Below are positions 5,286-20,246 of a stretch of 64,000 nt of DNA, piece by piece. A program made the translations under genes and the position numbers. Every line of letters begins with the position of its first letter. Within the stretch, counting starts at the first letter, position 1. The notes under the pieces are model-generated. The model ran no database searches, was not told the origin of the DNA, and saw only the letters and a list, made by a program, of their open reading frames with translations. The stretch comes from Elusimicrobiota bacterium (GTDB lineage Bacteria > CG03 > SLGR01 > JAFGSA01): contig JAFGSA010000052.1 of assembly GCA_016934855.1 (NCBI GenBank), positions 6,220 to 70,219 of the forward strand. The letters run 5' to 3'.

Positions 5286-5305
5286 CAGCTGCCTTTTCCG
5301 GAAAC

Positions 5306-5905
5306 TCAGCCATTCATGACCGCCTTGATCTTTTCCGATACAATACCGTATTTCTCCGCGAAACCGGACTCCAGTCCCGCCTGCCTGCCGGCCATCTGAG
5401 CGCAGGACGACTTGTCCCCTATGCCTTTCGCGTTTATATGATAGTTCATCATGCCGCCCCTGAAACATGAACCCGCAAGTTCAGACGAAATACCCACATC
5501 GGTGATTATGTTAGCGAATTTCCCGAGATCGAGCGAGCCGGCTACATCCAGCAGTTCACAGCTCTTCTCGGCTATCTCCAGCGAGACAAGCGCTGATGCC
5601 TTAAGAGCGGCCTGGAGTTTTTCCCCTCCCTGCCTCCACGCGGCGAGCACCTCTTTGAACCTTGCGCTGTCTTCTTCCGCAAGAGAAAGCATCTTCTTCT
5701 GTATACCGAGGAGCCTGCTCTCCGCAGCGAGAGCCTCCCCGTTCTGCCGGTCTTTTTTCAGCACCGCTATCCTGAGCGACATGAGCAAGAGAGCGCATGC
5801 CATCGAACCGATGACTCCCAGCGCGTTTCCGCCGCCCGGAGTACCGCTGTCCGAAGACAGCTTCTCAATATATCCGCCCAGAGAACTTTCAGTTAAACTG
5901 TCCAT
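5306..5905 (-). CDS. formiminotransferase-cyclodeaminase (FTCD_C)-like domain protein
   Basis: GTPGGGNALGVIGSMACALLLMSL matches the cyclodeaminase / methenyl-THF cyclohydrolase glycine-rich motif. SD GGAAGG precedes the ATG. Confidence 0.6.
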   Translation of the reverse strand: MDSLTESSLGGYIEKLSSDSGTPGGGNALGVIGSMACALLLMSLRIAVLKKDRQNGEALAAESRLLGIQKKMLSLAEEDSARFKEVLAAWRQGGEKLQAALKASALVSLEIAEKSCELLDVAGSLDLGKFANIITDVGISSELAGSCFRGGMMNYHINAKGIGDKSSCAQMAGRQAGLESGFAEKYGIVSEKIKAVMNG

Positions 5906-6176
5906 TTATCCTGACCTTCCCTTCTTCTACAAGGATCCTGGCCAGGGGCGTTACCAGAGCCCCCGGCGGGATATTTACCGTCATCGAGCCTTTTCTCATC
6001 TCGTCCAGGAGATACTTCTCCGTTATGAGAGCGCGCGCGGAAGCCATTTTTCCGCCGGACAGCGTTCTGCCGGTGAAGAACCCCCGTTTAAAATCATCCT
6101 TCCCGCTCTTTCCTGTCTCCGCCGCCTGTGAAAAAGCGTCTACTATCATATCGGCGATGAGTTCATCTCTTACCAT
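5889..6176 (-). CDS. small hypothetical protein (95 aa) with an amphipathic N-terminus, BMC-locus associated
   Basis: SD AAAGGGG precedes the ATG. The N-terminal helix DELIADMIVDAFSQAA resembles encapsulation peptides. The C-terminus has a GALVTPLARILVEEG motif also found in the TIM N-extension. Confidence 0.55.
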   Translation of the reverse strand: MVRDELIADMIVDAFSQAAETGKSGKDDFKRGFFTGRTLSGGKMASARALITEKYLLDEMRKGSMTVNIPPGALVTPLARILVEEGKVRINGQFN

Positions 6177-6259
6177 TAAATACCCCTTTTCTCGATACTG
6201 ACGATCACGGAAGACCGGGAACAGGCCGCGGCTCCCTGATCATCAGAACCGGCCTTTTC

Positions 6260-6559
6260 TCAGCTTTTCTTTTTCAGATGCCCCTGGGGGAGTATCATCT
6301 CGAGATCCTCATGAGGCCTCGGTATAACGTGAACGCTCACCAGTTCTCCGACCTTCTGAGCGGCCGCCGCGCCGGCTTCCACAGCCGCCCGCACAGCTCC
6401 TACTTCTCCCCTGACCATAGTCGTCACGTAACCGTGCCCTATCTTCTCGTATCCCGCGAGATCGACCTTGGCAGCCTTCACCATCGCATCGGACGCCTCT
6501 ATCATCCCTATCAGCCCGATCGTCTCGATCATTCCCAACGCAAACTTAGATTCCGCCAT
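6260..6559 (-). CDS. BMC-H shell protein (PduA/EutM-like hexamer)
   Basis: [26 protein letters not shown]...[19 protein letters not shown] is the canonical BMC (PF00936) domain. A strong AGGAGG SD precedes the ATG. Confidence 0.93.
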
Positions 6560-6578
6560 TTTATACCTCCTGTTTTCA

Positions 6579-6716
6579 GTTTTAAGTTTTAAGCTTTAAG
6601 CTGTAAGCTCAATAATCCGCGAAAATATGAAAATCCATTCATAACATCATCAGTTAATTGATTTTCTTTTCCTGTCATTTCTTTGTCTTATAACTTACAG
6701 CTTACAACTTACAACT
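6579..6716. repeat. long imperfect inverted repeat (about 23 bp arms built from TTTAAG/CTTACA heptamer-like units) flanking an AT-rich roughly 80 nt spacer, between the aldolase and BMC-H genes
   Basis: Left arm tttaagttttaagctttaagctgtaagct and right arm ttataacttacagcttacaacttacaact are reverse complements with 3 mismatches. Confidence 0.6.
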
Positions 6717-8120
6717 CTAGTACTTGCTGTCGGATTTTCCTCCCGTCACTATGGCAACCGACGCCGACGCACCTATCCTGGTCGCTCCGGCTTTCACCAT
6801 CGTATCCGCATCTTCGCCCGTGCGTATTCCGCCTGATGCTTTGACTCCCATCGCAGGGCCGACGGTCTTTCTCATCAGGCTTATATCCTCGGCAGTAGCG
6901 CCTCCCGGGCCGAAACCGGTAGATGTCTTCACGAAGTCGGCGCCGGCATTCTTTGATATCTCGGACGCTTTTACTATCTGCTCCTTGCTGAGAAGCGCGG
7001 TCTCCAGGATTACCTTGAGAATTTTGCCCCGCGTCGCTTCCCTCACGGCTTTAATGTCATCCTCCACCAGCCGGTAGTTGCCTCCCTTCAGCGCTCCCAC
7101 GTTTAGGACCATGTCTATCTCGTCGGCACCGTTCGCTATCGCGTCGCGGGCTTCTATGGCCTTTACCGTAGGCGTGGTAGCTCCCAGGGGGAAACCTATC
7201 ACGGTAGTGACCCCTACGCCTGAGCCTTTCAGCAGTTCGCTGGCCATCTTCACGTGAGTCGGGTTCACGCAGACGGTGGCAAATTTATATTTTTTTGCTT
7301 CTTCACACAGTTTCCCTATCTGTTCCTGCGTCGCGTCCGCCTTGAGATTCGTATGGTCTATGAGCCTGGCAACATCAGCGGGCACTCCCGACGTGACCTG
7401 TTTCGAAGATATCCTTGATGCGCCGGCATCGATTATGGATTTAACCTCATCCTTGCGGTTTATCACGCAAAGCCCGCACTCCGCGCATGATTCGATACCC
7501 GGACAGGCTCCCGGCCTGGCCGTTTCTCCGCCGACCGGCACCACGTTCCTCAGGTTCATGATTTCAGCAGTCTTCTTCGCCAAATTCCTGCTGAGAGTTA
7601 TCTCGGCGCCCAGGTTTTTTATCGTGTTTATATACTCGTTTATCCTGCGCATGTAAAGTGACGTGACAGGAGGCTCGGGCGCATTACAGCACAATACCGA
7701 ATCCCTGGCCATTATTATCTTCTTTCCGTACCTCATCGCCATGAGGATGAGATTGCTGGCAGCGTTATCAGGCAGCATGTTTGCTATTTTGGATGCCCCG
7801 TTCAGCGTCAGGACAGGCACTATCACGGCATCCAGTTTCTCTACGAATCCCCTGTCCCACATCTCTTTCTCCGTAGCTATGTCGCAGCCGCCGGCTTCCT
7901 GTACTTTCTGCTTGCCGATGATACGTTCGGCGGCCGGAGTCAGAAAAGCGCGGAACTTCATGCCCATGTCCCTGAGACACCTCACCTGTTTAAGCGACGT
8001 TTCCACCTCCCTGTCCCCGCCCATGAATATGAGCAGGACGTTTTTTGCGGACGCATCTTCCCCCTTAAGCCTGTTTATCGTCTCCCTGGTCACTTTCTGT
8101 ATGAAATTCTCGTCTGCCAC
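6717..8120 (-). CDS. deoC: fusion of a flavoprotein-like (HFCD/SpoVFB-like) domain with deoxyribose-phosphate aldolase (DeoC/DERA)
   Basis: The C-terminal half ([12 protein letters not shown]...VKTSTGF...ASGGIRT) is a class I DERA. The N-terminal roughly 150 aa ([10 protein letters not shown]...[21 protein letters not shown]) resembles the PF02441 flavoprotein fold, and a Cys-rich linker ([13 protein letters not shown]) joins the halves. GTG start with SD AAGGAGGA. The N-terminal amphipathic helix [13 protein letters not shown] looks like an encapsulation peptide. Confidence 0.85.
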
Positions 8121-8129
8121 GGCTCCTCC

Positions 8130-8438
8130 TTAATGATATTTTTTCGTCTTATTCCCTGCCGAAACACTGTCTACTATGCCGGCTATTATCGTCCTGGTCG
8201 GCCCCTTACCGGCCCCCATCATCTGCCGGCAGGAAGATCCCTCGTCGATTATGAGCACCGTATCGCCGGGACCCGCATCCATGCTGTGGTCTATCGCAAG
8301 CTGTACCGGACCCGACCTGGTCCCTTTCATCCCGTCTACCGGACATATTAGCATCAGCTTTTTCCCTTCGAGCGAAGGATGTTTTCTCGTTGCCCAGACG
8401 TTCCCTACAACTTTTGCTATAAACATATAAATTCGCAT
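8130..8438 (-). CDS. BMC-P vertex protein (EutN/CcmL family pentamer)
   Basis: 102 aa with the EutN_CcmL pattern IAKVVGNVWATRK...GDTVLI...GAGKG. Confidence 0.88.
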   Translation of the reverse strand: MRIYMFIAKVVGNVWATRKHPSLEGKKLMLICPVDGMKGTRSGPVQLAIDHSMDAGPGDTVLIIDEGSSCRQMMGAGKGPTRTIIAGIVDSVSAGNKTKKYH

Positions 8439-8500
8439 CTCGTGAAGCGCATTTCGTGAAGCGTGCTATTCAGATGTATTTTTCCCGGACGATTCACTTT

Positions 8501-8815
8501 TTACGTTTCACCCTTCACTAAATTTACTCCGTCTATTATGCCTATCACCGCGTTATGGCATATAGGCTCTTCCTCGAAAGCCTGGCATGCTTCTTTAGAG
8601 GAAACATAAAAGACATATTCCGAATAGCCTGCACCGACCGCGTCGAGCGCCAGCACCGATTTACCGCTGTCTTTCGGACTTATATCCTTCCCGCCGTTCA
8701 CAGCTTCCGCCACCTCTTCCCAGGTCATCGGCTTCAGCATCAGTATCTTCTTCCCTCCGGTATTAGGGTACTTGCTGGTAGCTACGACCCTGCCTATGAC
8801 CCTGCCGGCTTTCAT
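8501..8815 (-). CDS. BMC-P vertex protein (EutN/CcmL family), second paralog with an insertion
   Basis: MKAGRVIGRVVATSKYP... is the EutN/CcmL N-terminal signature. An atypical roughly 25 aa insertion is present. The stop overlaps the downstream RpiB start. Confidence 0.82.
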   Translation of the reverse strand: MKAGRVIGRVVATSKYPNTGGKKILMLKPMTWEEVAEAVNGGKDISPKDSGKSVLALDAVGAGYSEYVFYVSSKEACQAFEEEPICHNAVIGIIDGVNLVKGET

Positions 8816-9252
8816 CTTTTCTCCATGTCCGCTATAAGGTTAATCCTGCGTTCGTGGCGGCCGCCCTCGAACCCGGTCCTGAGGAAAGCGTCTACTATCT
8901 TCTTCGCCTTTGCGAAAGAGGTAAAATCTGCTCCCAGGCAGAGGATATTCGCGTTATTATGCTTCGCGGCCATGACCGCGGCTTTCGCGGTCCTCACGGT
9001 GACTCCCCTTATGCCTTTCACCTTGTTGACGGCGATGCATACTCCGAGCCCGCTCCCGCATACCGCTATTCCCTTTTCCGCCCTTTTCCCCGAAACATCC
9101 ATGGCTACTTTTTCCGCGTATACGGGGTAATCAACGGAAGCCGGTCCGTCCGTACCGTTATCTATTACTTCGTGGCCGGACGCTACCAGGAACTTCCTTA
9201 TCCTGTCCTTGAGCGCATATCCCCTGTGGTCCGATCCGACGGATATCTTCAT
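8812..9252 (-). CDS. rpiB: ribose-5-phosphate isomerase B / LacB-like sugar-phosphate isomerase (catalytic Cys retained)
   Basis: MKISVGSDHRGYALK...IAVCGSGLGVCIAVNK...GGRHERRI is the RpiB/LacAB family, with the CGSG catalytic cysteine. Confidence 0.88.
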   Translation of the reverse strand: MKISVGSDHRGYALKDRIRKFLVASGHEVIDNGTDGPASVDYPVYAEKVAMDVSGKRAEKGIAVCGSGLGVCIAVNKVKGIRGVTVRTAKAAVMAAKHNNANILCLGADFTSFAKAKKIVDAFLRTGFEGGRHERRINLIADMEKR

Positions 9253-9256
9253 ATTT

Positions 9257-9706
9257 TCACCTGTAATACCTGTCTTCGACGGATTTCACCTTGTCCAGCC
9301 TTTTCCGGTGCCTTCCCTCGCCGAAGGGAGTCTCCAGCCATTGGGTCACTATGTCACGGGCGAGAAGCGTACCCAGCATCTTGCCCCCGAGACAGAGCAC
9401 GTTGCAGTCGTCGTGCTCGGAAGCGTACGCTCCCGTAAGATGGTTATACGCCGTGACAGCCCTTATGCCCCTGACCTTGTTTGCCGTCAGGCAGACCCCC
9501 CCTCCGGTTCCGTCTATCAGTATGCCCCTGCCGTAATCTCCCCGCGATACGGCTTCGGCCACAAGCAGCGCGTAGTCGGGGTAATCGCAGGATTCTTCCG
9601 AATACGTGCCGAAATCTATCACGTTATGCCCTTTTCCCTGCAGAAATTTTTTAATATCTTCTTTTAAGGCGAAACCGCCGTGGTCCGATCCTATTACTAT
9701 ATTCAT
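9257..9706 (-). CDS. RpiB/LacA-like sugar-phosphate isomerase paralog (catalytic Cys replaced by Asp)
   Basis: MNIVIGSDHGGFALK...ILIDGTGGGVCLTANK...GEGRHRKR is the same family, but with DGTG in place of CGTG. SD AGGAG precedes the ATG. Confidence 0.85.
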   Translation of the reverse strand: MNIVIGSDHGGFALKEDIKKFLQGKGHNVIDFGTYSEESCDYPDYALLVAEAVSRGDYGRGILIDGTGGGVCLTANKVRGIRAVTAYNHLTGAYASEHDDCNVLCLGGKMLGTLLARDIVTQWLETPFGEGRHRKRLDKVKSVEDRYYR

Positions 9707-9788
9707 TTTCTGGTAACTCCTGATCCGTGTAATATGTCATGTGAAATGTGTAACGTATAAATATCAAATTCAGATGAAACCGGATGGA

Positions 9789-9810
9789 AATCTACTGCCA
9801 ATCTATTGCC
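9789..9810. repeat. tandem direct 11-mer repeat (aatctactgcc / aatctattgcc) in the 184 nt intra-operon gap between BMC-T and the RpiB pair
   Basis: Two adjacent 11-mers differ by one base; read directly from the sequence. Confidence 0.5.
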
Positions 9811-9890
9811 AGAATAACAATCTTCTGCAAATTGAAAATAATTTCTAAGCATGAAATTTCCCTGCACTTCGCATATTACAACTTATACAA

Positions 9891-10439
9891 TCACAGCACG
9901 CTCTTCCGCAGGTCTTTATGCGGACTCGGGATTATGACCCTTCTTATGAGTATCCCTTCTTCTTTTATCGAACCGCACCCCGCGTTCACCGCCGACCGGA
10001 CGCTGGCGACATCCCCGGTCATCGTAACATACGCTTTTCCGCCGAGAGCGTTTGCCAGCCTCACGTCTATGAGCCTGATATCGGCTGCCTTCGCCGCGCT
10101 GTCAGCGGCTATTATGCACGACGCGACCGAAAACGTTTCTATGATGCCCAGCGCCCCGATCTCCGAGACGTCAGACGTGCCCCTGATAGCAGGAACAAGC
10201 TGGTCATGCACGTTCTTTATTATCAGTTTATCGACCAGCGCGTCTTCTGCCAGGTTCAGGCCGCTTTTCAGAGAACTCTCCACATCGGCCGTCGAACCGG
10301 TTATAAGGACTATGAACTTGCCCGGGCAGACGGAATGGGCTTCCACCAGTTCGCTGCCAGCAGTTTTCAAAAGGGCATCGGTGACCTCAAACCCTTTGGC
10401 CACACTGCATAATTCTATCAATCCTATCGCGTTGCGCAT
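9891..10439 (-). CDS. BMC-T shell protein (tandem BMC-domain, PduT-like pseudohexamer)
   Basis: Two BMC domains (IGLIELCSVAKG... and IGALGIIETFSVAS...). The likely start is MRNAIGLIEL at 10439, 10 nt after the PduS stop, with a GGAG SD. Confidence 0.85.
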   Translation of the reverse strand: MRNAIGLIELCSVAKGFEVTDALLKTAGSELVEAHSVCPGKFIVLITGSTADVESSLKSGLNLAEDALVDKLIIKNVHDQLVPAIRGTSDVSEIGALGIIETFSVASCIIAADSAAKAADIRLIDVRLANALGGKAYVTMTGDVASVRSAVNAGCGSIKEEGILIRRVIIPSPHKDLRKSVL

Positions 10440-10449
10440 ATTTTGCTCC

Positions 10450-11766
10450 TCAGCCGGATATCTCGATATACTCACTGCTAAAGCCCTTCACGGTGCCGCT
10501 TATGCTGGAGTGGACCGCCGCGCCGAGCTTATCTGCGGGTATCCCGGCCAGCAGGTCTCCCTTTTTCACCCTGTCGCCCTCACTTACTACGGGACTTGCC
10601 GGTGTCCCTATATGCTGGCTGAGAGGTATTCTGACTTTTCCGGTATCCACGGTCTTGACCCTGATATCGTGCATATCGTATGAATCTATATCAAGCCGGG
10701 CCATAAGCCTGTCCGTATTGACTCTTCTGAATTCCCTTTCCGGATGCGCCTTGAGATCCGAAAGCGAATGGGGATTCTTTATCCCTTTCTCCGCGAGTTC
10801 CTTCTTCGTCTTCCTGAGCATGTCCCGGGGGGACAGATCAAGGGGGCACGCGTACATATTGCATAACCCGCACTCGCTGCACAGGTACGCGTTCGTAAGA
10901 TGCACCTGATCGCCGCCGATAAAAAAGTTCCTCATGATCATGTGCGGCGAGAGGTTGTGTCCCAGCAGGTTCCTTGGGCATACTATAGTGCAGTCGAAAC
11001 ACTGATCACAGGTGGATTTGGCCCTTCTGGCCATGGCCTCGAAACCGGCACTGTGCTTCGCCACAAGAGGATGATCGGGCTTCAGCACTATCAGTCCTCC
11101 GCAGAGCTTCGTTATACTGAAGGATCTCTCCACCACCTTGCCCATCATGGGACCGCCGGCTATCACGGCATAATCTTTCAGCAGAGGTACGGCCCTGTCT
11201 ATAAGTTCTCCCGCGGATATGCCCACGGGCACCTCCGCGATATACGGTTCTTCGACCTCACCGGCGACTGTTACCCACCTGGTTACCACCGGGGTATCGC
11301 TTTCCACCGCAGCATTTATATTCACAAGAGTGTTTACATTTATCACGACCGCACCGACGCTAAGAGGTATGCCTCCTTCCGGGATGATCCTCCCGGTTAT
11401 GTTATATACCAGCTCGAACTCGTCTCCGGCGGGGTAATAGTTATCCAGGAGCGCTACCCTGACGGATTTATCGCGGGCGGCTGCCTTCCTGACAGATTCC
11501 GCAGCTTCCGGATACTTTTTTTTCAGCGCGATAAAGACGTTTTTCGCCCCCGTTGTTTTTTTCACGTGCCCCAGACCCTGCATTATCTCGGCGGCACGGT
11601 TTTCCATCAGATACCTGTCCGTACTCAGCAGAGGCTCGCACTCGGCTCCGTTGGCTATCACGGTATCGACGGAGGCCGCTATCTTGACATGCGCAGGGAA
11701 TCCGCCCCCGCCTGCGCCTACGACTCCCGCTCTTCTGACTCTTTCGATAATATCCTTTTTCTCCAT
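10450..11766 (-). CDS. pduS: PduS/RnfC-like NAD(P)H-binding Fe-S flavoprotein (BMC cofactor-recycling oxidoreductase)
   Basis: N-terminal GAGGGGFP (Complex1_51K/SLBB region), two 4Fe-4S motifs (CDQCFDCTIVCP and CSECGLCNMYACP), and a C-terminal RnfC_N-like barrel segment PLSQHIGTPASPVVSEGDRVKKGDLLAG. Confidence 0.85.
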   Translation of the reverse strand: MEKKDIIERVRRAGVVGAGGGGFPAHVKIAASVDTVIANGAECEPLLSTDRYLMENRAAEIMQGLGHVKKTTGAKNVFIALKKKYPEAAESVRKAAARDKSVRVALLDNYYPAGDEFELVYNITGRIIPEGGIPLSVGAVVINVNTLVNINAAVESDTPVVTRWVTVAGEVEEPYIAEVPVGISAGELIDRAVPLLKDYAVIAGGPMMGKVVERSFSITKLCGGLIVLKPDHPLVAKHSAGFEAMARRAKSTCDQCFDCTIVCPRNLLGHNLSPHMIMRNFFIGGDQVHLTNAYLCSECGLCNMYACPLDLSPRDMLRKTKKELAEKGIKNPHSLSDLKAHPEREFRRVNTDRLMARLDIDSYDMHDIRVKTVDTGKVRIPLSQHIGTPASPVVSEGDRVKKGDLLAGIPADKLGAAVHSSISGTVKGFSSEYIEISG

Positions 11767-11811
11767 CCTATGATATCAATGATCTGGGTCTCGCCGGCTG
11801 TCTGTCCCGCG

Positions 11812-13242
11812 TCATACTATCCTGAAATAGTCCACAAGGGTGCAGCGCAGCGGGCGGGTGAATGTCTTCGCGCTTACCAGCCCGTCACCCGTAGGCGTGG
11901 CTATGGAAAGCGATGCGAACCCTTCTCCCATTCCGAGCCCCATGTAAGACGGGCCGTTTTTTACGAATATGGAGCATGCCGCGGCATAGGCCATCTTCGT
12001 CAGCCTGTCCACGTTCAGTGAATGCATCACGGCAGTGTGCCCGTTGCCTCCCTCCATCTCCACGGCAAGCTGTATAGTCCTGTCGATGGAACCGGTCCTT
12101 GCAAACGGGAGTATCGGCATGAGCTGCTCGGTCCACATAAAATCGTGTTTTTCGTCGACGAGGCCCCACAGCAGCCTTACATCTTCCCGCAGATCGATAC
12201 CCAGCGCGTTCTTCGCAATAAAAGAAGCGTTCCTGCCTACATACTCGCGGTTCAGCACGGGTTCCCTGCAGCCGGCACCGCCTTTTACTATCGCGGCAGA
12301 CGCGAGCCTGTCCATCTGTTCCGGCGACAGTTCGTGAACCCTGGGATCTTTTCTCATTCTCTCCAGCACAGCCTCGGCCGCGCCGTCTGCCAGAAGGACT
12401 TCTTTTTCCGCCGTGCACAGTATGCCGTTATCGAAACTGGCCCCCCTTATTATCGAATCCACCGCTTTTTCGAAATCGGCGGTTTCGTCGACAACTACCG
12501 GAGGGTTCCCGGGCCCGGCGGCGATGACTCTCTTACTGCTTTTCATCGCTGCCGCGACTACCCCCGGGCCTCCGGTCACAAGAAGAATCCTTATATCAGG
12601 ATGAGTAAACAGGGTCTGTGCTCCCTCGATGCTGGGGGTTTTCATCGCGGTTATCAGCCCCCTAGGGCCGCCGCTCGCCGCTATGGCGTCTGAAAGGATC
12701 TGCATAGTATACTGGGAGACCTCCCTGGCAGCGGGATGCGGGGCGAATACCACGGAATTGCCCGCCGCTATTATGCTTATAGAATTATTTATTATCGTAG
12801 ACGGAGGATTGGTCGAGGGAGTAACGGCTCCTATGATCCCGTAAGGCGCCCTTTCCACGAGAGTCAGCCCGTTGTCCCCGGTGAAAGCTTCGGGACGCAG
12901 ATCTTCGACACCCGGCGTTTTTTCCGCGGCCAGGGTGTTCTTCAGCACTTTGTCTTCCCACCGGCCCATCCCGGTCTCCCTGCTTGCCATCTTCGCAAGC
13001 GTCTGAGCTTCTTTAAGGGAAACACGGCGCATCGCATCAATCAGTCTCTTCCTGGTCTCAAGATCCGTATCCCTGAGCTTTCTCTGCGCTTCCTTCGCGG
13101 CCAGGATCGCCTCTTCCATCGTCTGGAAAAGTACCCCGTCACCCGAGGAGGCGGCAGGGCCGTATGATACGCCCTTCTCCTTCTCCATCCTTGATATTAT
13201 CTCTCTTACCACGTCTGATATCTGCTTCTCGTCTACATTCAT
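11812..13242 (-). CDS. CoA-acylating aldehyde dehydrogenase (PduP/EutE-like) with an N-terminal encapsulation peptide
   Basis: Aldehyde dehydrogenase fold with the catalytic-Cys region ILCTAEKE. The N-terminal amphipathic helix ISDVVREIISRM is followed by a linker. The ORF-track start at 13257 is TTG; the ATG at 13242 follows the SD GAGAGG. Confidence 0.85.
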   Translation of the reverse strand: MNVDEKQISDVVREIISRMEKEKGVSYGPAASSGDGVLFQTMEEAILAAKEAQRKLRDTDLETRKRLIDAMRRVSLKEAQTLAKMASRETGMGRWEDKVLKNTLAAEKTPGVEDLRPEAFTGDNGLTLVERAPYGIIGAVTPSTNPPSTIINNSISIIAAGNSVVFAPHPAAREVSQYTMQILSDAIAASGGPRGLITAMKTPSIEGAQTLFTHPDIRILLVTGGPGVVAAAMKSSKRVIAAGPGNPPVVVDETADFEKAVDSIIRGASFDNGILCTAEKEVLLADGAAEAVLERMRKDPRVHELSPEQMDRLASAAIVKGGAGCREPVLNREYVGRNASFIAKNALGIDLREDVRLLWGLVDEKHDFMWTEQLMPILPFARTGSIDRTIQLAVEMEGGNGHTAVMHSLNVDRLTKMAYAAACSIFVKNGPSYMGLGMGEGFASLSIATPTGDGLVSAKTFTRPLRCTLVDYFRIV

Positions 13243-13301
13243 TCTCATACCTCTCAAAGCTTGATACGGGTCCGCTTCCGGTATTCGCCGTGGATCGGCG
13301 G

Positions 13302-13595
13302 CTACTTGGTTTTTCTGAAGATAACCTTCCCTTCTTTCTCTATGTAATCCACTATTCCCATTACCGTGCAGTCTACCGGCCTGTTCTCGGTGGCATCCGT
13401 CATCCTGGCGGATGACCCCTTGACGAACAGGACTACCTCCCCCTCTCCGGCTCCCACTGAATCGATCCCCACCTGCGGTGCCGAAGTAGGCTTGAGATTA
13501 TCGTCTACGGGCTGTACCAGGAGAAGTTTCCTCCCCTGGATTTTTTCATCCTTTACGGTGCAGACCACGTTTCCTGTTATTATTCCGAATTCCAT
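13302..13595 (-). CDS. BMC-P vertex protein (EutN/CcmL family), third paralog
   Basis: MEFGIITGNVVCTVK...GEVVLFVKGSSAR is the EutN_CcmL pattern. Confidence 0.88.
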   Translation of the reverse strand: MEFGIITGNVVCTVKDEKIQGRKLLLVQPVDDNLKPTSAPQVGIDSVGAGEGEVVLFVKGSSARMTDATENRPVDCTVMGIVDYIEKEGKVIFRKTK

Positions 13596-13620
13596 GCTTG
13601 TTCTCCTTTAAGACTGACGC

Positions 13621-13917
13621 TCATTTTACAGGTCTTATGGGAAGCAGTTCCTCCAGATCCCGGAAAGGATATGGGATGACATGGGCGCTCATCACTTTCC
13701 CCACCCGGTTAGCCGCGCTGCAGGCCGCATCTACGGCCGCCTGGCAGTCCGCCACGGAACCCCTGACCAGCACCGTCACTATCCCGTCTCCGGTTTTCCT
13801 GTAACCGGCTATCTGGACCTTCGCCGTTTTCAACATGACATCGGCCGCTTCCACCATGGCAGTCAGTCCCATGGTCTCGATCATGCCGAGGGCTGTCATG
13901 TCCCTGTCAATATCCAT
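13621..13917 (-). CDS. BMC-H shell protein (PduA/EutM-like hexamer)
   Basis: ALGMIETMGLTAMVEAADVMLKTAKV...VTVLVRGSVADCQAAVDAA is the BMC domain. An alternative start at 13899 (MTALGMIET) is plausible. Confidence 0.9.
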   Translation of the reverse strand: MDIDRDMTALGMIETMGLTAMVEAADVMLKTAKVQIAGYRKTGDGIVTVLVRGSVADCQAAVDAACSAANRVGKVMSAHVIPYPFRDLEELLPIRPVK

Positions 13918-13923
13918 AACGCT

Positions 13924-14541
13924 TTAACATATAAAAACCTTATCGCCGTTTTTCAGATCACACGAATTGGCCTCGTCCGTATCTATATGACACTCGAGCC
14001 TGTATTTATCGCTCACACGCACCAGCACGTTTTCGAATACGACCGACCTGGATCCGGCTGTCCGGATGCGGACCTCCTGCTTGTCTGCGAGATTGAATTC
14101 TTCGGCGTCCGCGGGGGTCATATGAATATGCCTTCTGGCTACGATCACTCCCTCTTTTATCTGCAGGGATCCCTTAGGCCCGATAAACCTGGCCCCGCCG
14201 GAGCTCTTTATATCCCCGGATTCCCTGACCGGGACTTCTATCCCGATCCTGTAGCTGTCGGTCCTGGATATCTCGGCCTGGGTTATCTTTCTCGCGGGGC
14301 CGAGTACCCTTACGTTCTTGAGCGTGCCCCTGGGTCCGAGTATATCTATCGTCTCCCGCGCAGCGTATTCGCCGGGCTGCACCAGGTCCCTCAGTTTGCG
14401 CAATTCGTATCCGCTCCCGAAAAGCGCCTCTATGGCTTCCCGGGTCAGATGCACGTGCCTGTTGGAGATATTGCAGATGACAGGTTTATCCATCCTCCCG
14501 AGTCTCTTAACAACTTCTCCTGCGATCTTAGATATGTCCAT
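13924..14541 (-). CDS. pduL: phosphate acyltransferase PduL (PTAC) with an N-terminal amphipathic helix
   Basis: Two PduL repeats, NISNRHVHLT...GPRG and ARRHIHMTPADAEEF...ECHIDTDEAN. The N-terminal helix is ISKIAGEVVKRLGRM. Confidence 0.9.
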   Translation of the reverse strand: MDISKIAGEVVKRLGRMDKPVICNISNRHVHLTREAIEALFGSGYELRKLRDLVQPGEYAARETIDILGPRGTLKNVRVLGPARKITQAEISRTDSYRIGIEVPVRESGDIKSSGGARFIGPKGSLQIKEGVIVARRHIHMTPADAEEFNLADKQEVRIRTAGSRSVVFENVLVRVSDKYRLECHIDTDEANSCDLKNGDKVFIC

Positions 14542-14623: not shown

Positions 14624-15520
14624 TCAACCCCTGAATTTTACTATGCTTGCAAATGAACCGGCCTCAAGACTGGCCCCGCCGACCAGACCTCCGTCTACGT
14701 TCTCCTGCTTCATTATGTCCGAGATGTTATCCGGTTTTATGCTCCCTCCGTATAGGATCCTGATATTCTGGGCGAGTTCTTCCGTGAACATCTCCGAGAG
14801 GGTATTCCTTATAAACTTGTGCGCTTCTTCGGCCTGTGCGGGAGTCGCCGTCTTTCCGGTACCTATCGCCCAAACGGGTTCATATGCTATGGTCAGCGCT
14901 TCCTTTTCATCTTCACTTAGGTCGGCCAGCCCGCCGGAGAGCTGTTTCTTAAGAACTTCGAACGTCTTTCCCTTCTCCCTTTCCTGGAGCGACTCGCCTA
15001 TGCATACTATGGGCTTCAATCCTTCTTTCACGGCGAACTTCAGCTTTTTATTGACTGTCCCGTCCGTGCACCCGAAATACTGCCTTCTCTCGGAATGCCC
15101 TATTATGACCCACTCGCATCCGCATTCCCTGAGCATCGGCGGAGATATCTCCCCCGTGTAAGCGCCGTTCTTTTCCGGATACATGTTCTGCGCGCCCAGG
15201 GCGATGTTGGTCCCCTTCAGAAGTTCGCCTGCCAGGTTCAGCGCGGTATAGGGAGGCGCAACCATTATATCTACGTCGGTTACACCGGCGACCTTGTCTT
15301 TAAATGCCTTTATGAATGCAACGGTCTCGCTGCCGGTCTTATTCATCTTCCAGTTTCCAGCCATCAATGGTCTTCTCATCAGTTCCTCCGTTATCTCGAT
15401 ACCATGGGTATCCGCCGCTTCCCTGGCCATAGGAGTGACAAGCGTCCCCTTCGTCAGGGATACCCTCCTTTTTCCGCTCCTTATTGCTGACATTATGTCA
15501 ACATATTTGTAAATTCCCAT
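14624..15520 (-). CDS. tpiA: triosephosphate isomerase with a roughly 48 aa N-terminal extension
   Basis: The core MAGNWKMN...IAYEPVWAIGTGKTATPAQAEE...GGSIKPDN is TIM. The extension MGIYKYVDIMSAIRSGKRRVSLTKGTLVTPMAREAADTHGIEITEEL precedes it. The start codon abuts a predicted promoter. Confidence 0.88.
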   Translation of the reverse strand: MGIYKYVDIMSAIRSGKRRVSLTKGTLVTPMAREAADTHGIEITEELMRRPLMAGNWKMNKTGSETVAFIKAFKDKVAGVTDVDIMVAPPYTALNLAGELLKGTNIALGAQNMYPEKNGAYTGEISPPMLRECGCEWVIIGHSERRQYFGCTDGTVNKKLKFAVKEGLKPIVCIGESLQEREKGKTFEVLKKQLSGGLADLSEDEKEALTIAYEPVWAIGTGKTATPAQAEEAHKFIRNTLSEMFTEELAQNIRILYGGSIKPDNISDIMKQENVDGGLVGGASLEAGSFASIVKFRG

Positions 15521-15526
15521 TTAGAA

Positions 15527-15555
15527 AATATACTATTATTTTATTATACAGTCAA
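15527..15555 (-). promoter_or_regulatory. predicted sigma70-type promoter of the BMC operon (TTGACT-17 nt-TATATT, overlapping a TGTATAAT element), 6-7 nt upstream of the tpiA ATG
   Basis: Reverse-strand sequence TTGACTgtataataaaataatagTATATTttctaaATG sits in an AT-rich 72 nt intergenic gap. Confidence 0.5.
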
Positions 15556-15592: not shown

Positions 15593-16693
15593 TCAGTTGA
15601 AACCCATGACCCTGTTGCGCCCCTGTTCTTTGGCCATATACAGCCGGCTGTCTGCCATATTGATCAGATCATCGAAAGTTTCCATATTATCGGAATATTC
15701 GGCGACTCCTATTGTGACCGTCATGCCGTAATCGCACCGGTTATGCGTAAAAACCGTTTCTTCGATGTTCTTCCTGAGCCTTTCCGCCAGTACGGACGCT
15801 TTCCTGCCGGCCGTCTCCGGCATCATGACCACGAATTCGTCGCCGCCGTACCTGGCGCACAGGTCGGCCGCCCTGGTGCTCTGGAGTATCAGCTTAGATA
15901 TGTGTATGAGCGCCTGGTCGCCTACCTGGTGCCTGTTGGTATCGTTGAAATCCTTAAAATTGTCTATGTCGATAAAAACAAGCGACAGAGCACGCCCGTA
16001 CCTTTTTGCCTTCTCGAATTCCTTGTGCATGTGCCGGAGGAAATATCTCTTTATGTACAAACCTGTCAGGCCGTCTGTAATAGCCAGTTCGTACATCCTT
16101 GCATTGTTTATGGAGACAGCTGCATGGGACGCTATTATGGACATAAGCCGCTCATCGTTCCTTATAAACTGTTCCCCGGTGATCTTGGAATCCAGGTTGA
16201 CGACTCCCAGGAGCTCACCCTTGAATATCAGGGGAAGAGAAAGAATGGTCTCCTTCGGCAAGGCATCATCCGGGAATATCTCCTTGTAGAACCTGTTTTC
16301 CGTCGTGTCGTTTACCAGAACTGGTTTTCTGGTATACGCCACTCTGCCCGCGATACCTTCTCCTATCTTCAACTTCACATTCTCTACGGCCCTCGGGCTT
16401 AGCCCCAGGGATTCCCTTATCCGCAGGATGCCTTCCTTCCTGTCATAAAGCATTATAGAACCTTTTTTTACTTTGCCAGCTTTCACGAACGCTCCCATGA
16501 TTGCGGGAAGCAGCTCGTTCATCTCGAGATGCGAGGACATGTCGCTAGAGAGCTTCTGCAGCAGTTTCAGGTCATGGACAGCCTGACGGAGAAATCCGGT
16601 CCTGTTCCTCAGCCTGAAATAATTCTTCAGCAGGAATAATATTCCTGAAACAATTGCCAGTATTAATACGGAACAGAAGATCCGGCCGGTCAC
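15593..16693 (-). CDS. membrane-anchored GAF-GGDEF diguanylate cyclase
   Basis: N-terminal TM segment, a GAF-like region, and a GGDEF domain with an intact RYGGDEF active site. The start overlaps the upstream permease stop by 4 nt. Confidence 0.85.
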   Translation of the reverse strand: MTGRIFCSVLILAIVSGILFLLKNYFRLRNRTGFLRQAVHDLKLLQKLSSDMSSHLEMNELLPAIMGAFVKAGKVKKGSIMLYDRKEGILRIRESLGLSPRAVENVKLKIGEGIAGRVAYTRKPVLVNDTTENRFYKEIFPDDALPKETILSLPLIFKGELLGVVNLDSKITGEQFIRNDERLMSIIASHAAVSINNARMYELAITDGLTGLYIKRYFLRHMHKEFEKAKRYGRALSLVFIDIDNFKDFNDTNRHQVGDQALIHISKLILQSTRAADLCARYGGDEFVVMMPETAGRKASVLAERLRKNIEETVFTHNRCDYGMTVTIGVAEYSDNMETFDDLINMADSRLYMAKEQGRNRVMGFN

Positions 16694-17586
16694 AGGCTGA
16701 GCTCCTCCGGGTAGGGCTTACCCACGGCTGCCGGCGGTTCGGATCTCCCTATAAGCCCGGAAAGCACTATTATAGTCAGCAGGTATGGTATGGACTGGAT
16801 GAACTGGCTGGGTATGTTTACTCCCATAGTCTGGACATGTATCTGTATGCTCTCCGCAAGGCCGAATATCAGCGCCGCCCCGGTCGCTCCCAGAGGTGTC
16901 CACTTGCCGAATATCATGGCTGCCAGCGCGATAAAACCCCTGCCGCTGGACATATTGGATGTGAACTGCGACTGCTGCATTGCGAGCCATGCGCCTGCCA
17001 GGCCCGCCAATGCTCCGCTTATCGCGACCCCGGAGTATCTCATCAGCCATACGTTTATTCCGAGACTGTCCGCCGCCGCCGGATTTTCCCCGCACGCCCT
17101 GAGACGCAGTCCGAAAGGAGTCTTGAAGAGGATTACATGCGCCAGGACCACGATGAAAACAGTTATGACTATCACCGGGCTTATGCCGCCGATCACAGGA
17201 AAAGTAATAAGCTTCAACGGTATTATCCTCGCGGAATTCGATGAACTTCCGAAAACAAGAATAAGGAAGAATTTTGTTATGCCTACAGCGAAGATATTGA
17301 TCGCTACTCCGCTTACTATATGATTCACCTTGTACCTTATGCAGCTTACGGCGTGGATGACGGAAGTGATTATCCCGCCGGTCACTCCCGCGATAAGACC
17401 GAGCCACGGATTCCCCAGGTAATATGTTCCCACTACCGAACAGAAAGCGCCGTTCAGCATTATCCCTTCCAGCCCTATATTTATAACCCCCGAACTCTCC
17501 GAAAAGACGCCGCCCACGGCCGCCAGTATGTAAGGGACGGATATCCTGACAGTCTGCAGTAAAATATTCAGGACGAAATCCGTCAC
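16690..17586 (-). CDS. ABC transporter permease (nucleoside/simple-sugar type, BMP-system)
   Basis: 298 aa polytopic permease; its start is coupled to the upstream permease stop. Confidence 0.8.
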   Translation of the reverse strand: MTDFVLNILLQTVRISVPYILAAVGGVFSESSGVINIGLEGIMLNGAFCSVVGTYYLGNPWLGLIAGVTGGIITSVIHAVSCIRYKVNHIVSGVAINIFAVGITKFFLILVFGSSSNSARIIPLKLITFPVIGGISPVIVITVFIVVLAHVILFKTPFGLRLRACGENPAAADSLGINVWLMRYSGVAISGALAGLAGAWLAMQQSQFTSNMSSGRGFIALAAMIFGKWTPLGATGAALIFGLAESIQIHVQTMGVNIPSQFIQSIPYLLTIIVLSGLIGRSEPPAAVGKPYPEELSL

Positions 17587-18710
17587 TATTTCCTCCTGAG
17601 CCCTTCCCGGGAAACCTGTTCCCCTATTATGGCGTCGGCTCTCTGCGTATCCGGCTTATCGTCTCCGGTCGCTGAATTCCTCAGGAGTATCCTGGAAAAG
17701 ACGGTGTTTCCCACGACCACGCTCAGTATGACAACAGCCTGGAGTATATCAAGGATCTCCTTGGGCACCACAGAGTTAACAAGAAGGCTTCCGAAAGAAA
17801 GCCCTCCGAACAGAAGGCTTGCGGCTATGATGCCGAACGGATGGTTTTTCCCGAGCAGAGCTACTGCTATCCCCATGAATCCCACGCCTCCCGAAAAGCC
17901 CTGTTCGAAATAATACTTGTAACCCATGACATAATTGGAACCGACCAGCCCCGATATGCCGCCCGAGACGGCCAGCGTCACGATCATCATCTTCGAACTG
18001 TCAACCCCCGCGTACTCTCCCGCAGCAGGGTTGTAACCCATTGCTCTCAACTCGTAACCAAACCTGCTTAAATACAATATATACCATACAGCCAGCGCCG
18101 CTGCTAACGCTATAAAAAAACTGAAATTGAGCGAAGAACCCTTAAAACCCGGAAGTATGCCGGCGATGGCCGGGAGCCGCGCCGCAGCTGCTATCTGCGG
18201 CGTCCTCACTGTTCCGGGAACGAAGAAATGGCTCGTGACTATATAGTTAGTGAAAGCGAGAGCAATGAAATTCAGCATGATGGTGGTTATAACTTCGTGG
18301 GCTCCGGTCTTTGCTTTCAGCATACCAGGGATGAATCCCCAGGCCGCACCGCCGGCCGCGGCGGCGGCAAGGCACACGGGAATCAACAGCAGCCCGGGCA
18401 GCCCTGAAAAAACACAGCCTGTCCAGGCGCACAGGAGCGATCCCATGTAAAGCTGTCCTTCGCACCCGATATTGAACAGACCCGCCTTGAAGGCGAATGC
18501 GACCGCAAGTCCCGTAAATATCAGGGGGGTCGCATAAAAAAACAGCTGTCCTATGCCGTAAAGATTCCCGAAAATGCCGGAGAATAGAATGGAATATACG
18601 AAGAAAGGATTCTTCCCTGTGATGAGGATGAATAGCGCTCCCACCGCCAGAGAGAATAAAACAGCCATGAGCGGCACCGCCAGGTTGATCATCAGGGTCT
18701 TTCTTTTCAC
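17586..18710 (-). CDS. ABC transporter permease (nucleoside/simple-sugar type)
   Basis: 374 aa polytopic permease overlapping the ATPase stop. Confidence 0.8.
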   Translation of the reverse strand: MKRKTLMINLAVPLMAVLFSLAVGALFILITGKNPFFVYSILFSGIFGNLYGIGQLFFYATPLIFTGLAVAFAFKAGLFNIGCEGQLYMGSLLCAWTGCVFSGLPGLLLIPVCLAAAAAGGAAWGFIPGMLKAKTGAHEVITTIMLNFIALAFTNYIVTSHFFVPGTVRTPQIAAAARLPAIAGILPGFKGSSLNFSFFIALAAALAVWYILYLSRFGYELRAMGYNPAAGEYAGVDSSKMMIVTLAVSGGISGLVGSNYVMGYKYYFEQGFSGGVGFMGIAVALLGKNHPFGIIAASLLFGGLSFGSLLVNSVVPKEILDILQAVVILSVVVGNTVFSRILLRNSATGDDKPDTQRADAIIGEQVSREGLRRK

Positions 18711-20236: not shown

Positions 20237-20246
20237 CTTTTAAATT

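What the first reader, a model, noticed from the sequence alone, without database searches (positions are those of the whole stretch)
14624..15520. Triosephosphate isomerase with a 48-residue N-terminal extension sharing a VTPxAR motif with two other locus proteins
The TIM core begins at MAGNWKMN, but the ORF begins 48 codons earlier with MGIYKYVDIMSAIRSGKRRVSLTKGTLVTPMAREAADTHGIEITEEL. The segment G-x-LVTP-[LM]-AR-x-x-x-[ED]-x-G recurs at the C-terminus of the 95-aa protein at 5889-6176 (GALVTPLARILVEEGKV). A weaker version ([11 protein letters not shown]) sits in the flavoprotein-like domain of the aldolase fusion. TIM is not a usual BMC cargo. The extension could be a targeting or docking module placing G3P-to-DHAP conversion at or in the shell, and the small protein could be a scaffold using the same motif.
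Basis: seen in the sequence. Interest (0 to 1): 0.6.

Follow-up and report, generated by a model that had tools for sequence, protein, structure and literature searches.

The report
EutQ-like docking domain on microcompartment TIM
The first gene of a sugar-phosphate microcompartment operon encodes a normal triosephosphate isomerase that carries a conserved 47-residue folded domain at its N-terminus. That domain is related to the part of EutQ that binds the microcompartment shell, so it most likely anchors the enzyme to or inside the organelle.

Summary
ORF 14624-15520(-) encodes an intact TIM preceded by 47 residues that no Pfam model covers. NCBI's annotation of this same MAG starts the protein at Met48.

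The extension is coding. At least 17 homologues keep it, starting at the same Met, with codon-position identity pos2>pos1>pos3.

It is a compact beta-alpha-beta-beta-alpha-beta mini-domain (AF2 pLDDT 92), not a classical amphipathic encapsulation peptide.

It is homologous to:
- the C-terminal half of the locus's 95-aa protein (hhalign E 6e-10);
- residues 3-47 of EutQ (hhalign 91%; 11 of 12 extensions hit the NCBIfam EutQ model there). Published work shows this EutQ region binds the Eut shell.

An exhaustive profile search found 215 proteins with the domain. Those with a recognisable enzyme are BMC-linked: RpiB, PduL, EutQ cupin, PduM-like, flavoprotein-like, adenosyltransferase, TIM, and small "EP helix + domain" proteins.

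Best reading: a EutQ-N-type docking module recruits TIM to the SPU microcompartment. The 95-aa protein is a stand-alone EP-plus-domain tether.

[11 protein letters not shown] is ordinary flavoprotein fold, and TIM is already a known SPU-locus enzyme. The extension is also not universal (absent in L018, degenerate in L016).

Rating: new member of a known kind, moderately interesting.

The parts
15380..15520 (-). N-terminal extension of TIM, residues 1-47. It is a EutQ-N-like mini-domain with predicted order beta(3-4)-alpha(6-14)-beta(19-22)-beta(27-28)-alpha(30-39)-beta(42-45).
   Evidence: Translation. No Pfam hit. Conserved in homologues. Codon-position pattern. AF2 pLDDT 92.3. hhalign to EutQ residues 3-47 at probability 91.4%, E 9e-7. 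11 of 12 family members hit NCBIfam EutQ positions 9-47.
14624..15379 (-). Canonical triosephosphate isomerase core, M48 to G298 plus stop. The catalytic Lys58, His142 and Glu214 are invariant.
   Evidence: Pfam TIM E 1.6e-99, residues 51-296. Invariant columns K58, H142, E214. NCBI's annotation of this MAG starts here (P0001, 251 aa).
15385..15389 (-). Internal Shine-Dalgarno GGAGG, 5 nt upstream of the M48 ATG (15377-15379). It may drive a short TIM isoform.
   Evidence: Sequence. An SD-like GGAGG/GAGAGG 4-5 nt before the internal Met is conserved in window, L001, L003, L006 and L007 although the encoded residues differ.
15527..15555 (-). Promoter-like site TTGACT-17-TATATT, ending 6 nt upstream of ATG1. 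No Shine-Dalgarno lies in front of ATG1, so the long isoform may come from a leaderless or near-leaderless mRNA.
   Evidence: Consensus scan, 10 of 12 matches. A similar -35/-10 box directly before ATG1 occurs in L001, L003, L006 and L007. This is inference only.
5889..6176 (-). 95-aa protein: N-terminal EP-like helix (MVRDELIADMIVDAFSQAAE), a GFF linker, and a C-terminal copy of the same domain.
   Evidence: Translation. Orthologues at the same place in L001/L002, L003 and L006.
5895..6029 (-). C-terminal EutQ-N-like domain of the 95-aa protein (residues about 50-94).
   Evidence: hhalign A2 vs A3, E 5.8e-10. Leave-one-out profile E 1.4e-5. hmmsearch.
5306..14541 (-). Rest of the SPU-type microcompartment operon downstream of TIM. 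Gene order: PduL, BMC-H, BMC-P, AldDH, PduS-like, BMC-T, RpiB x2, BMC-P x2, flavoprotein-DeoC aldolase, BMC-H, the 95-aa protein, FTCD_C protein.
   Evidence: Pfam. Identical gene order in L001-L004.

Best explanation
The gene encodes a catalytically intact triosephosphate isomerase. Its first 47 residues form a small, independently folding alpha/beta domain.

This domain belongs to a family specific to bacterial microcompartments and not modelled in Pfam. The family includes the N-terminal H1/H2 region of EutQ, the C-terminus of the TIGR02536 'eut_hyp' proteins, and probably the C-terminus of PduM. It has been fused repeatedly to BMC-associated enzymes.

By analogy with EutQ, whose H1/H2 region attaches it to the EutM/EutL shell, the domain most likely docks TIM onto the shell of the SPU microcompartment. 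Glyceraldehyde-3-phosphate released by the deoxyribose-phosphate aldolase would then be isomerised to DHAP at or in the organelle.

The 95-aa protein of the same operon carries the same domain behind an encapsulation-peptide-like helix. It is most simply read as a stand-alone tether between the EP-bearing cargo (AldDH, PduL, aldolase) and the shell.

Shown here: the ORF, its conservation and coding selection, the fold prediction, the homologies, and the domain's distribution.
Inferred: the binding partner (shell), the luminal location, and production of a long isoform (leaderless ATG1) and a short isoform (SD-driven M48).
For: 1. The extension is real and coding.
- 13 database homologues of 291-312 aa carry it from the same Met1.
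- It is also encoded in frame upstream of TIMs annotated short in L006 and L017, and is present in L007 and L021.
- Codon-position identity is pos2>pos1>pos3 in 9 of 10 locus pairs, and pos3 is lowest in all 10.
- P0009 has no Met at the position of M48 but has one six residues upstream (KMSESKRKP). In P0064 the nearest Met is one residue upstream (KMLKR).

2. Fold. AF2 on the isolated domain gives pLDDT 92.3 and a compact b-a-b-b-a-b fold. The same elements appear in the full-length model.

3. Homology to EutQ.
- hhalign to E. coli EutQ residues 3-47: probability 91.4%, E 9e-7, 36% identity. This lies outside Pfam EutQ, which covers 85-232.
- 11 of 12 extensions hit the NCBIfam EutQ model at positions 9-47, 8 of 12 hit the TIGR02536 C-terminus, and 3 of 12 hit the PduM C-terminus. 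These are the top three of 18,950 models.
- The exhaustive search retrieved genuine EutQ proteins with domain plus cupin, P0203 and P0211.

4. Function of the EutQ region. Deleting EutQ 9-41 detaches it from the shell. EutQ1-99 targets GFP to Eut BMCs. MST shows EutQ-EutM and EutQ-EutL binding (PMC12487888). Truncating the EutQ N-terminus abolishes EutM pull-down (PMC4827028).

5. Distribution. There are 215 hits at E<=1e-3 in 1.84 billion representatives. Pfam families among the best 150: RpiB 13, Flavoprotein 7, PTAC 6, EutQ cupin 2, PDU_like 2, TIM 1, PTA_PTB 1, Cob_adeno_trans 1.

6. Locus context. TIM-with-extension is the first gene of syntenic SPU loci. It co-occurs with the small EP+domain protein in all four distinct loci where both ends are visible: window, L001/L002, L003 and L006.
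Against: - No binding experiment or multimer model exists for this protein. The shell-binding assignment rests on one experimentally studied homologue at about 36% identity over 44 residues.
- In EutQ, H1/H2 works together with a flexible region and H3/H4, which the TIM extension lacks.
- Held et al. argued that EutQ binds the cytosolic face of EutM, so luminal versus outer placement is unsettled.
- The extension is dispensable in some lineages. The L018 TIM heads an SPU locus without it, and in L016 it looks degenerate.
- The conserved internal SD plus ATG means much of the protein may be made without the domain.
- NCBI gene callers chose M48.
- Foldseek found no solved structure with this fold (best E 0.29).
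Confidence: 0.62

Rival explanations
1. Adaptor or piggyback model, the first reader's 'scaffold'. The TIM domain does not touch the shell. It pairs with the homologous domain of the 95-aa protein, and that protein's encapsulation-peptide-like helix carries the complex into the cargo core or to the shell.
For: Exactly two copies of the domain occur per locus, one on TIM and one on the small protein, in all four distinct loci where both can be seen. TIM has the domain but no EP, and the small protein has both. Many other proteins carry EP plus domain as one unit in front of RpiB (L009, L010, L023, L024, P0184, P0246).
Against: EutQ1-99 is monomeric and its H1/H2 region maps to shell association, not self-association. 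Other loci show only one detectable domain copy within 10 kb either side (L008-L012). No multimer prediction could be run.
Confidence: 0.22
2. The extension is not part of the functional protein. Translation starts at M48, as in the NCBI annotation, and the upstream 141 nt is a 5' leader.
For: A strong GGAGG sits 5 nt before M48 and is conserved in five loci. There is no SD before ATG1. NCBI models start at M48 in three MAG records (P0001, P0013, P0016). L018 has no extension.
Against: Amino-acid conservation runs from Met1 in at least 17 sequences. Third-codon-position variability shows coding selection. The profile is homologous to a protein domain family. The ORF opens directly after an in-frame stop at ATG1. 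An independent TIM lineage (P0156) carries the domain without any internal Met. A dual-isoform arrangement is compatible with all of this.
Confidence: 0.05
3. The domain is a peripheral-subunit-binding-domain-like (PSBD/E3_binding) or other partner-binding element. It would tether TIM to a locus enzyme such as AldDH, PduS-like or the aldolase rather than to the shell, or it would bind a small ligand.
For: Several family members give sub-threshold Pfam E3_binding hits at the TPLAR..A...GI segment, E 2.5e-4 to 0.07. hhalign places the same segment on the E. coli AceF PSBD.
Against: All these hits fall below Pfam's gathering score. The hhalign probability is only 9.4% over 19 columns. The predicted fold has four strands, unlike the all-helical PSBD as I know it. 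The three best NCBIfam models are all BMC proteins.
Confidence: 0.08
4. The extension is a classical encapsulation peptide: an amphipathic helix plus a flexible linker. Dwyer et al. predicted this for SPU4 TPI.
For: PMC11585597 predicts an N-terminal EP on SPU4 TPI and notes that annotations miss such extensions.
Against: AF2 predicts a compact 45-residue alpha/beta domain at pLDDT 92 with no disordered linker, and TIM strand 1 starts at residue 52. The sequence family is that of EutQ residues 3-47, not of EPs. The locus's real EP-like helices on AldDH, PduL, the aldolase and the 95-aa protein look different.
Confidence: 0.03

Closest known systems
EutQ N-terminal H1/H2 region (Salmonella/E. 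coli EutQ residues about 3-47), the shell-binding part of the EutQ shell-cargo linker (Sci Adv 2025, PMC12487888; Sci Rep 2016, PMC4827028)
   Same: Homologous sequence: hhalign 91%, 36% identity, and 11 of 12 extensions hit NCBIfam EutQ positions 9-47. Same N-terminal position on an enzyme encoded in a BMC operon. Same order of helix 1 and helix 2. Shared ITxxDI...G....V....IITPxAREvA...GI.I signature.
   Different: It is fused to TIM, not to a cupin or acetate kinase. It lacks EutQ's flexible region and the H3/H4 EP-binding helices. It sits in an SPU (deoxyribose-phosphate) locus rather than a Eut locus. Shell binding is untested here. AF2 adds short beta strands that the published H1-H4 description does not mention.
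SPU-locus triosephosphate isomerase (TPI) described by Dwyer et al. 2024 (Commun Biol, PMC11585597)
   Same: A TIM encoded in an SPU BMC locus alongside DERA, RpiB, AldDH, PTAC and PduS-like. That paper notes N-terminal extensions that automated annotation misses, and predicts an N-terminal 'EP' for SPU4 TPI.
   Different: The paper's main text treats the extension as an encapsulation peptide and does not link it to EutQ. Here it is a folded EutQ-N-type domain. I could not determine this locus's subtype (SPU1 or SPU4), and the supplementary tables were not available.
TIGR02536 'eut_hyp' proteins and PduM (BMC structural or accessory proteins)
   Same: Their C-terminal 40 or so residues match the same domain: TIGR02536 positions 160-206 of 207, PduM positions 111-158. 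The roughly 230-260-aa hits share EP helix + flavoprotein-like domain + this domain.
   Different: The domain is C-terminal there and N-terminal on TIM. The PduM matches are weak (best E 0.0065) and below curated cut-offs.
Canonical encapsulation peptides (PduP, PduD and EutC N-termini)
   Same: A terminal extension absent from non-BMC homologues and presumed to recruit an enzyme to the organelle.
   Different: It is not a lone amphipathic helix with a linker. It is a compact alpha/beta domain of about 45 residues.

Membership tests
Triosephosphate isomerase (PF00121) | Full-length match to the TIM model above the curated cut-off | tested here: met
   E 1.6e-99, 332.9 bits against a cut-off of 20.1, residues 51-296 on profile 1-244/245.
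Triosephosphate isomerase (PF00121) | Catalytic Lys (NWK), His (GHSERR) and Glu (YEPVWAIGTG) present | tested here: met
   K58, H142 and E214 are invariant across 18 sequences. Their assignment as catalytic residues rests on established knowledge of TIM.
EutQ N-terminal (H1/H2) shell-binding domain | Sequence homology to EutQ residues about 3-47 | tested here: met
   hhalign probability 91.4%, E 9.1e-7, 44 columns. 11 of 12 extensions hit NF012001 positions 9-47, best E 3.5e-5. Genuine EutQ proteins were retrieved by the TIM-extension profile.
EutQ N-terminal (H1/H2) shell-binding domain | Encoded in a BMC locus | tested here: met
   It is the first gene of an operon with 2 BMC-H, 1 BMC-T and 3 BMC-P, and the arrangement is syntenic in L001-L004.
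EutQ N-terminal (H1/H2) shell-binding domain | Physically binds shell proteins and is needed for shell association | not testable with these tools
   This needs pull-down, MST or imaging. No multimer prediction tool was available.
Full EutQ-type shell-cargo linker | H3/H4 EP-binding helices and a flexible region after H1/H2 | tested here: not met
   The TIM core starts at residue 48-52, directly after the domain. The extension is therefore only the H1/H2 module, not a EutQ-type linker.
Full EutQ-type shell-cargo linker | C-terminal EutQ cupin domain (PF06249) | tested here: not met
   There is no cupin hit, and the C-terminal part is TIM.
Canonical encapsulation peptide | Single amphipathic alpha-helix of about 15-20 aa joined by a poorly conserved flexible linker | tested here: not met
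   AF2 predicts b-a-b-b-a-b with pLDDT 92.3 and no low-confidence linker. Conservation runs across all 47 residues.
Peripheral subunit-binding domain (PF02817 E3_binding) | Match above the Pfam gathering score, or profile-level homology | tested here: not met
   The window extension gives no hit. Relatives give 13.7-21.6 bits against a cut-off of 23.7. hhalign to the AceF PSBD gives probability 9.4%.
SPU (sugar-phosphate utilisation) BMC locus | DeoC-type aldolase + RpiB + AldDH + BMC-H/T/P shell genes clustered | tested here: met
   DeoC, Aldedh, PTAC and Complex1_51K. LacAB_rpiB x2, BMC x3 and EutN_CcmL x3.
SPU (sugar-phosphate utilisation) BMC locus | Subtype assignment (SPU1-7) by BMC Caller HMMs | not tested
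The composition (PTAC, PduS, TPI, no BMC-Tdp seen) fits SPU1 or SPU4 as described in PMC11585597.

The most novel reading that the evidence does not exclude
The roughly 45-residue EutQ-N-like fold would be a general, so far unnamed second class of microcompartment targeting signal: an 'encapsulation domain' rather than an encapsulation peptide. Evolution would have fused it to TIM, RpiB, PduL, adenosyltransferase, cupin and flavoprotein-like proteins across many BMC types. Small 'EP helix + domain' proteins such as the 95-aa one would be minimal shell-cargo tethers that do EutQ's linker job in BMCs lacking EutQ. In addition, this TIM gene would make two isoforms from one mRNA: a leaderless long form sent to the organelle and an SD-driven short form for the cytosol. 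Encapsulation would then be set by start-site choice.
Probability: 0.3. Interest if true: 0.75.

Novelty: new member of a known kind. Interest (0 to 1): 0.55.

Why it matters
How enzymes without an amphipathic encapsulation peptide enter microcompartments is an open practical question for understanding and engineering BMCs. This finding ties a TIM extension in a widespread but barely characterised BMC type (SPU) to the only experimentally dissected shell-binding region of its kind, EutQ H1/H2.

It also shows that the same small domain is scattered over many BMC enzymes and small adaptor proteins, yet is absent from Pfam and routinely cut off by gene callers.

That yields three things:
- a testable targeting tag of 47 residues;
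- a candidate minimal shell-cargo tether;
- a concrete annotation fix.

It also bears on SPU metabolism. If TIM is inside, the compartment could export DHAP as well as GAP.

Tried and rejected
- A word-index search with the extension alone found nothing. The full-length query was needed.
- A profile search against PDB sequences gave only spurious PPR-repeat hits.
- PSBD/E3_binding relatedness was considered because of the TPxAR...GI motif. It was rejected as unsupported: below the gathering score and hhalign 9%.
- A weak S4-domain hit on the 95-aa protein (E 0.093) was treated as chance.
- The [11 protein letters not shown] 'third copy' was rejected.
- The hydrophobic-moment calculation did not discriminate the EP-like helices, so I do not use it.
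- The metagenome scan with the extension profile returned only five mostly short loci.
- The supplementary tables of PMC11585597, with its list of TPI extensions, were not held.
- I could not find out whether this genome has a second, housekeeping TIM. There is none in the 64-kb window.

Full report
**1. What is in the sequence**

Pfam's TIM model matches residues 51-296 (E 1.6e-99). No Pfam family reaches E<=1 on residues 1-50. The TIM catalytic residues are present and invariant among relatives (K58, H142, E214).

The canonical TIM N-terminus is MRRPLMAGNWKMN, so the extension is residues 1-47 (nt 15380-15520). An in-frame TAA lies immediately upstream of ATG1, so the ORF cannot be longer.

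The window belongs to an Elusimicrobia MAG. Its NCBI protein record (P0001, 251 aa, 100% identical) starts at M48.

**2. Is the extension real protein?**

Yes, on several independent grounds.

- Among the closest TIM relatives, 13 proteins of 291-312 aa cover 98-100% of the query. They align from the same Met1, with consensus MxILKYVDIMSAxxxGKKxxxVxxGTIVTPLARETADxxGIEIxE.
- Two relatives annotated short by NCBI carry the extension in frame just upstream in their DNA: P0013 in L006 and P0016 in L017.
- Further examples come from a Sumerlaeota MAG (L007) and a metagenome contig (L021).
- Across five independent loci, identity at codon positions follows pos2>pos1>pos3 in 9 of 10 pairs, and the third position is least conserved in all 10 (for example 0.67/0.78/0.49). 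This is the signature of selection on the encoded protein.
- An independent, distant TIM lineage (P0156) carries the same domain with no internal Met.

The extension is not universal. The L018 TIM (P0022) heads a syntenic SPU locus with no extension, and in L016 (P0015) the upstream region looks like a degenerate remnant.

**3. The recurrence in the 95-aa protein**

The similarity is much more than a motif. A profile of the TIM extensions (A2) aligns to a profile of the 95-aa protein and its orthologues from L001 and L003 (A3) over 41 columns, with probability 96.6% and E 5.8e-10. A profile built without any window sequence still finds the 95-aa ORF at E 1.4e-5 among all 1042 six-frame ORFs of the window.

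These are the only two copies in the 64 kb.

It lies inside the Pfam Flavoprotein match (27-138), and the domain profile does not detect it even with all filters off. In relatives that have both a flavoprotein-like domain and the true domain (for example P0147), the two sit in different parts of the protein.

**4. What the domain is**

AlphaFold2 predicts the isolated 47 residues with mean pLDDT 92.3 as a compact unit: beta(3-4)-alpha(6-14)-beta(19-22)-beta(27-28)-alpha(30-39)-beta(42-45). The same elements appear at pLDDT about 79-89 in the full-length model. No solved structure matches significantly (Foldseek PDB best E 0.29).

From memory the sequence resembled the EutQ N-terminus, so I fetched E. 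coli eutQ and tested the link.

- hhalign of the domain profile against EutQ aligns residues 3-47 with probability 91.4%, E 9.1e-7 and 36% identity. This region lies outside Pfam's EutQ model, which covers 85-232.
- Scanned one by one against 18,950 NCBIfam models, 11 of 12 TIM extensions hit the EutQ model at positions 9-47 (best E 3.5e-5).
- In the same scan, 8 of 12 hit the last 40 positions of TIGR02536 ('eut_hyp') and 3 of 12 hit the C-terminus of PduM. These are the top three families and all are BMC proteins.

**5. Distribution of the domain**

An exhaustive hmmsearch of 1.84 billion representative proteins found 215 hits at E<=1e-3. Pfam families among the best 150 were RpiB (13), Flavoprotein (7), PTAC/PduL (6), EutQ cupin (2), PDU_like (2), TIM (1), PTA_PTB (1) and Cob_adeno_trans (1).

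Recurrent architectures:
- EP-like helix + flavoprotein-like domain + domain, about 230-260 aa;
- EP helix + domain + linker + RpiB;
- RpiB + domain;
- PduL + two domains;
- domain + cupin, which is genuine EutQ (P0203, P0211);
- tandem two-domain proteins;
- many 80-110-aa proteins built like the window's 95-aa protein, with an N-terminal EP-like helix followed by the domain.

**6. How it most likely works**

The EutQ region has been dissected experimentally in Salmonella.
- Deleting residues 9-41 (H1/H2) leaves EutQ with the cargo and detaches it from the shell.
- H3/H4 (residues 62-99) binds the encapsulation peptides of EutC and EutE.
- EutQ1-99 is sufficient to send GFP into Eut BMCs.
- MST shows EutQ-EutM and EutQ-EutL binding (PMC12487888).
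- Earlier pull-downs showed that the N-terminal 100 residues are needed to bind EutM (PMC4827028).

The TIM extension corresponds to the H1/H2 module only. The best-supported mechanism is therefore that it docks the dimeric TIM to the shell of this SPU compartment, placing GAP-to-DHAP isomerisation next to the deoxyribose-phosphate aldolase.

The 95-aa protein combines an EP-like helix with the same module. AldDH, PduL and the aldolase fusion in this locus carry comparable N-terminal helices. The 95-aa protein reads naturally as a stand-alone shell-cargo tether. TIM-with-domain and this small protein co-occur in all four distinct loci where both ends are visible.

The binding partner is inferred, not shown. 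The main rival is that the two domains pair with each other, which is piggyback encapsulation through the small protein's EP. I could not test that because no multimer prediction was available.

**7. Start sites**

ATG1 has no Shine-Dalgarno. It sits 6 nt after a TTGACT-17-TATATT promoter-like site. Similar -35/-10 boxes 3-11 nt before ATG1 occur in L001, L003, L006 and L007. This suggests a leaderless or near-leaderless mRNA.

The internal M48 is preceded by GGAGG at 5 nt. An SD-like GGAGG/GAGAGG is kept in all five loci although the encoded residues vary (TEE, TED, MEG, RED, REE).

A plausible but unproven reading is that both a long and a short TIM are produced. This also explains why gene callers choose M48.

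**8. Relation to the literature**

TPI is already described as a frequent SPU-locus enzyme, prominent in SPU1 and SPU4. An N-terminal 'EP' was predicted for SPU4 TPI, with the remark that automated annotation misses such extensions (PMC11585597). So the presence of TIM in the locus and the existence of an extension are not new.

I did not find the identification of the extension as a folded EutQ-N-type domain, or its spread over many BMC enzymes and small adaptor proteins, in any of the following:
- that paper's main text;
- the 2021 BMC catalogue;
- the Asgard microcompartment preprint;
- a combined EutQ/PduM text search.

The relevant supplementary tables were not available, so prior notice cannot be excluded.

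**9. Verdict**

It is a new member of a known kind: a EutQ-type docking module on another enzyme. The open possibility is that the domain family represents a general, unnamed class of BMC targeting element.

Noticed in passing
window 15377-15389 (-); L001, L003, L006, L007 at the equivalent site: A GGAGG-type Shine-Dalgarno 4-5 nt upstream of the internal Met48 is conserved in five loci although the overlapping codons encode different residues. This suggests a second, short TIM isoform from the same gene.
   Followed up: partly
window 15521-15555 (-); upstream of ATG1 in L001, L003, L006, L007: ATG1 has no SD and lies 3-11 nt after a -35/-10 promoter-like pair in every locus examined. The operon's first gene may be translated from a leaderless mRNA.
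   Followed up: partly
P0001 (this window), P0013/L006:51-938, P0016/L017:4910-5809: NCBI records of three MAGs annotate this TIM from the internal Met (249-252 aa), cutting off the conserved 47-residue domain. This is a systematic start-site mis-annotation.
   Followed up: yes
L018:5841-6750 and L016:4102-5463: Two orthologous SPU loci have a TIM as first gene without a usable extension. L018 has none and a strong SD. L016 has what looks like a decayed remnant (…SAKEMGIAR*…EINCYMEEF-MRKP).
   Followed up: partly
window 3093-5468 (-); also at the end of L001/L002: A 791-aa protein with a DnaA-type AAA+ ATPase domain (PF00308, residues 217-378) is flanked by long Lys/Glu/Pro-rich low-complexity regions and two CxxC...CxxC zinc-ribbon-like motifs. 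It sits directly downstream of the BMC operon, and a similar DnaA-domain gene follows the locus in L001/L002.
   Followed up: no
window 5306-5905 (-): An FTCD_C (formiminotransferase-cyclodeaminase C-terminal) family protein overlaps the 95-aa gene by 17 nt and is conserved as the last gene of the locus in L001-L003. It has no obvious role in deoxyribose-phosphate catabolism.
   Followed up: no
window 6717-8120 (-), residues about 195-215: The flavoprotein-like/DeoC aldolase fusion has an EP-like N-terminal helix and a Cys-rich linker ([14 protein letters not shown]) between the two domains. This may be a metal or Fe-S site.
   Followed up: no
window 15593-22827 (-): Upstream of the operon lie a GAF-GGDEF diguanylate cyclase (syntenic in L001, L003, L018), a Bmp-family ABC transporter of the nucleoside-uptake type, and a 5'-nucleotidase. 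This fits nucleoside or deoxyribose feeding of the compartment and possible c-di-GMP-linked regulation.
   Followed up: no
L009:9863-10663, L010:5622-6458, L023:399-1529, L024:2-856; P0184, P0246: Many SPU-type RpiB proteins carry 'EP helix + this domain + long linker' at the N-terminus. The window's two RpiB paralogues (8812-9252, 9257-9706) have no extension at all.
   Followed up: partly
P0123, P0125, P0142, P0156; E. coli AceF residues 327-345: The TP-x-AR-x-x-A-x-x-x-G-I half of the domain resembles the first helix and loop of the E2 peripheral subunit-binding domain. The similarity is statistically unsupported and may be convergence or very distant kinship.
   Followed up: partly
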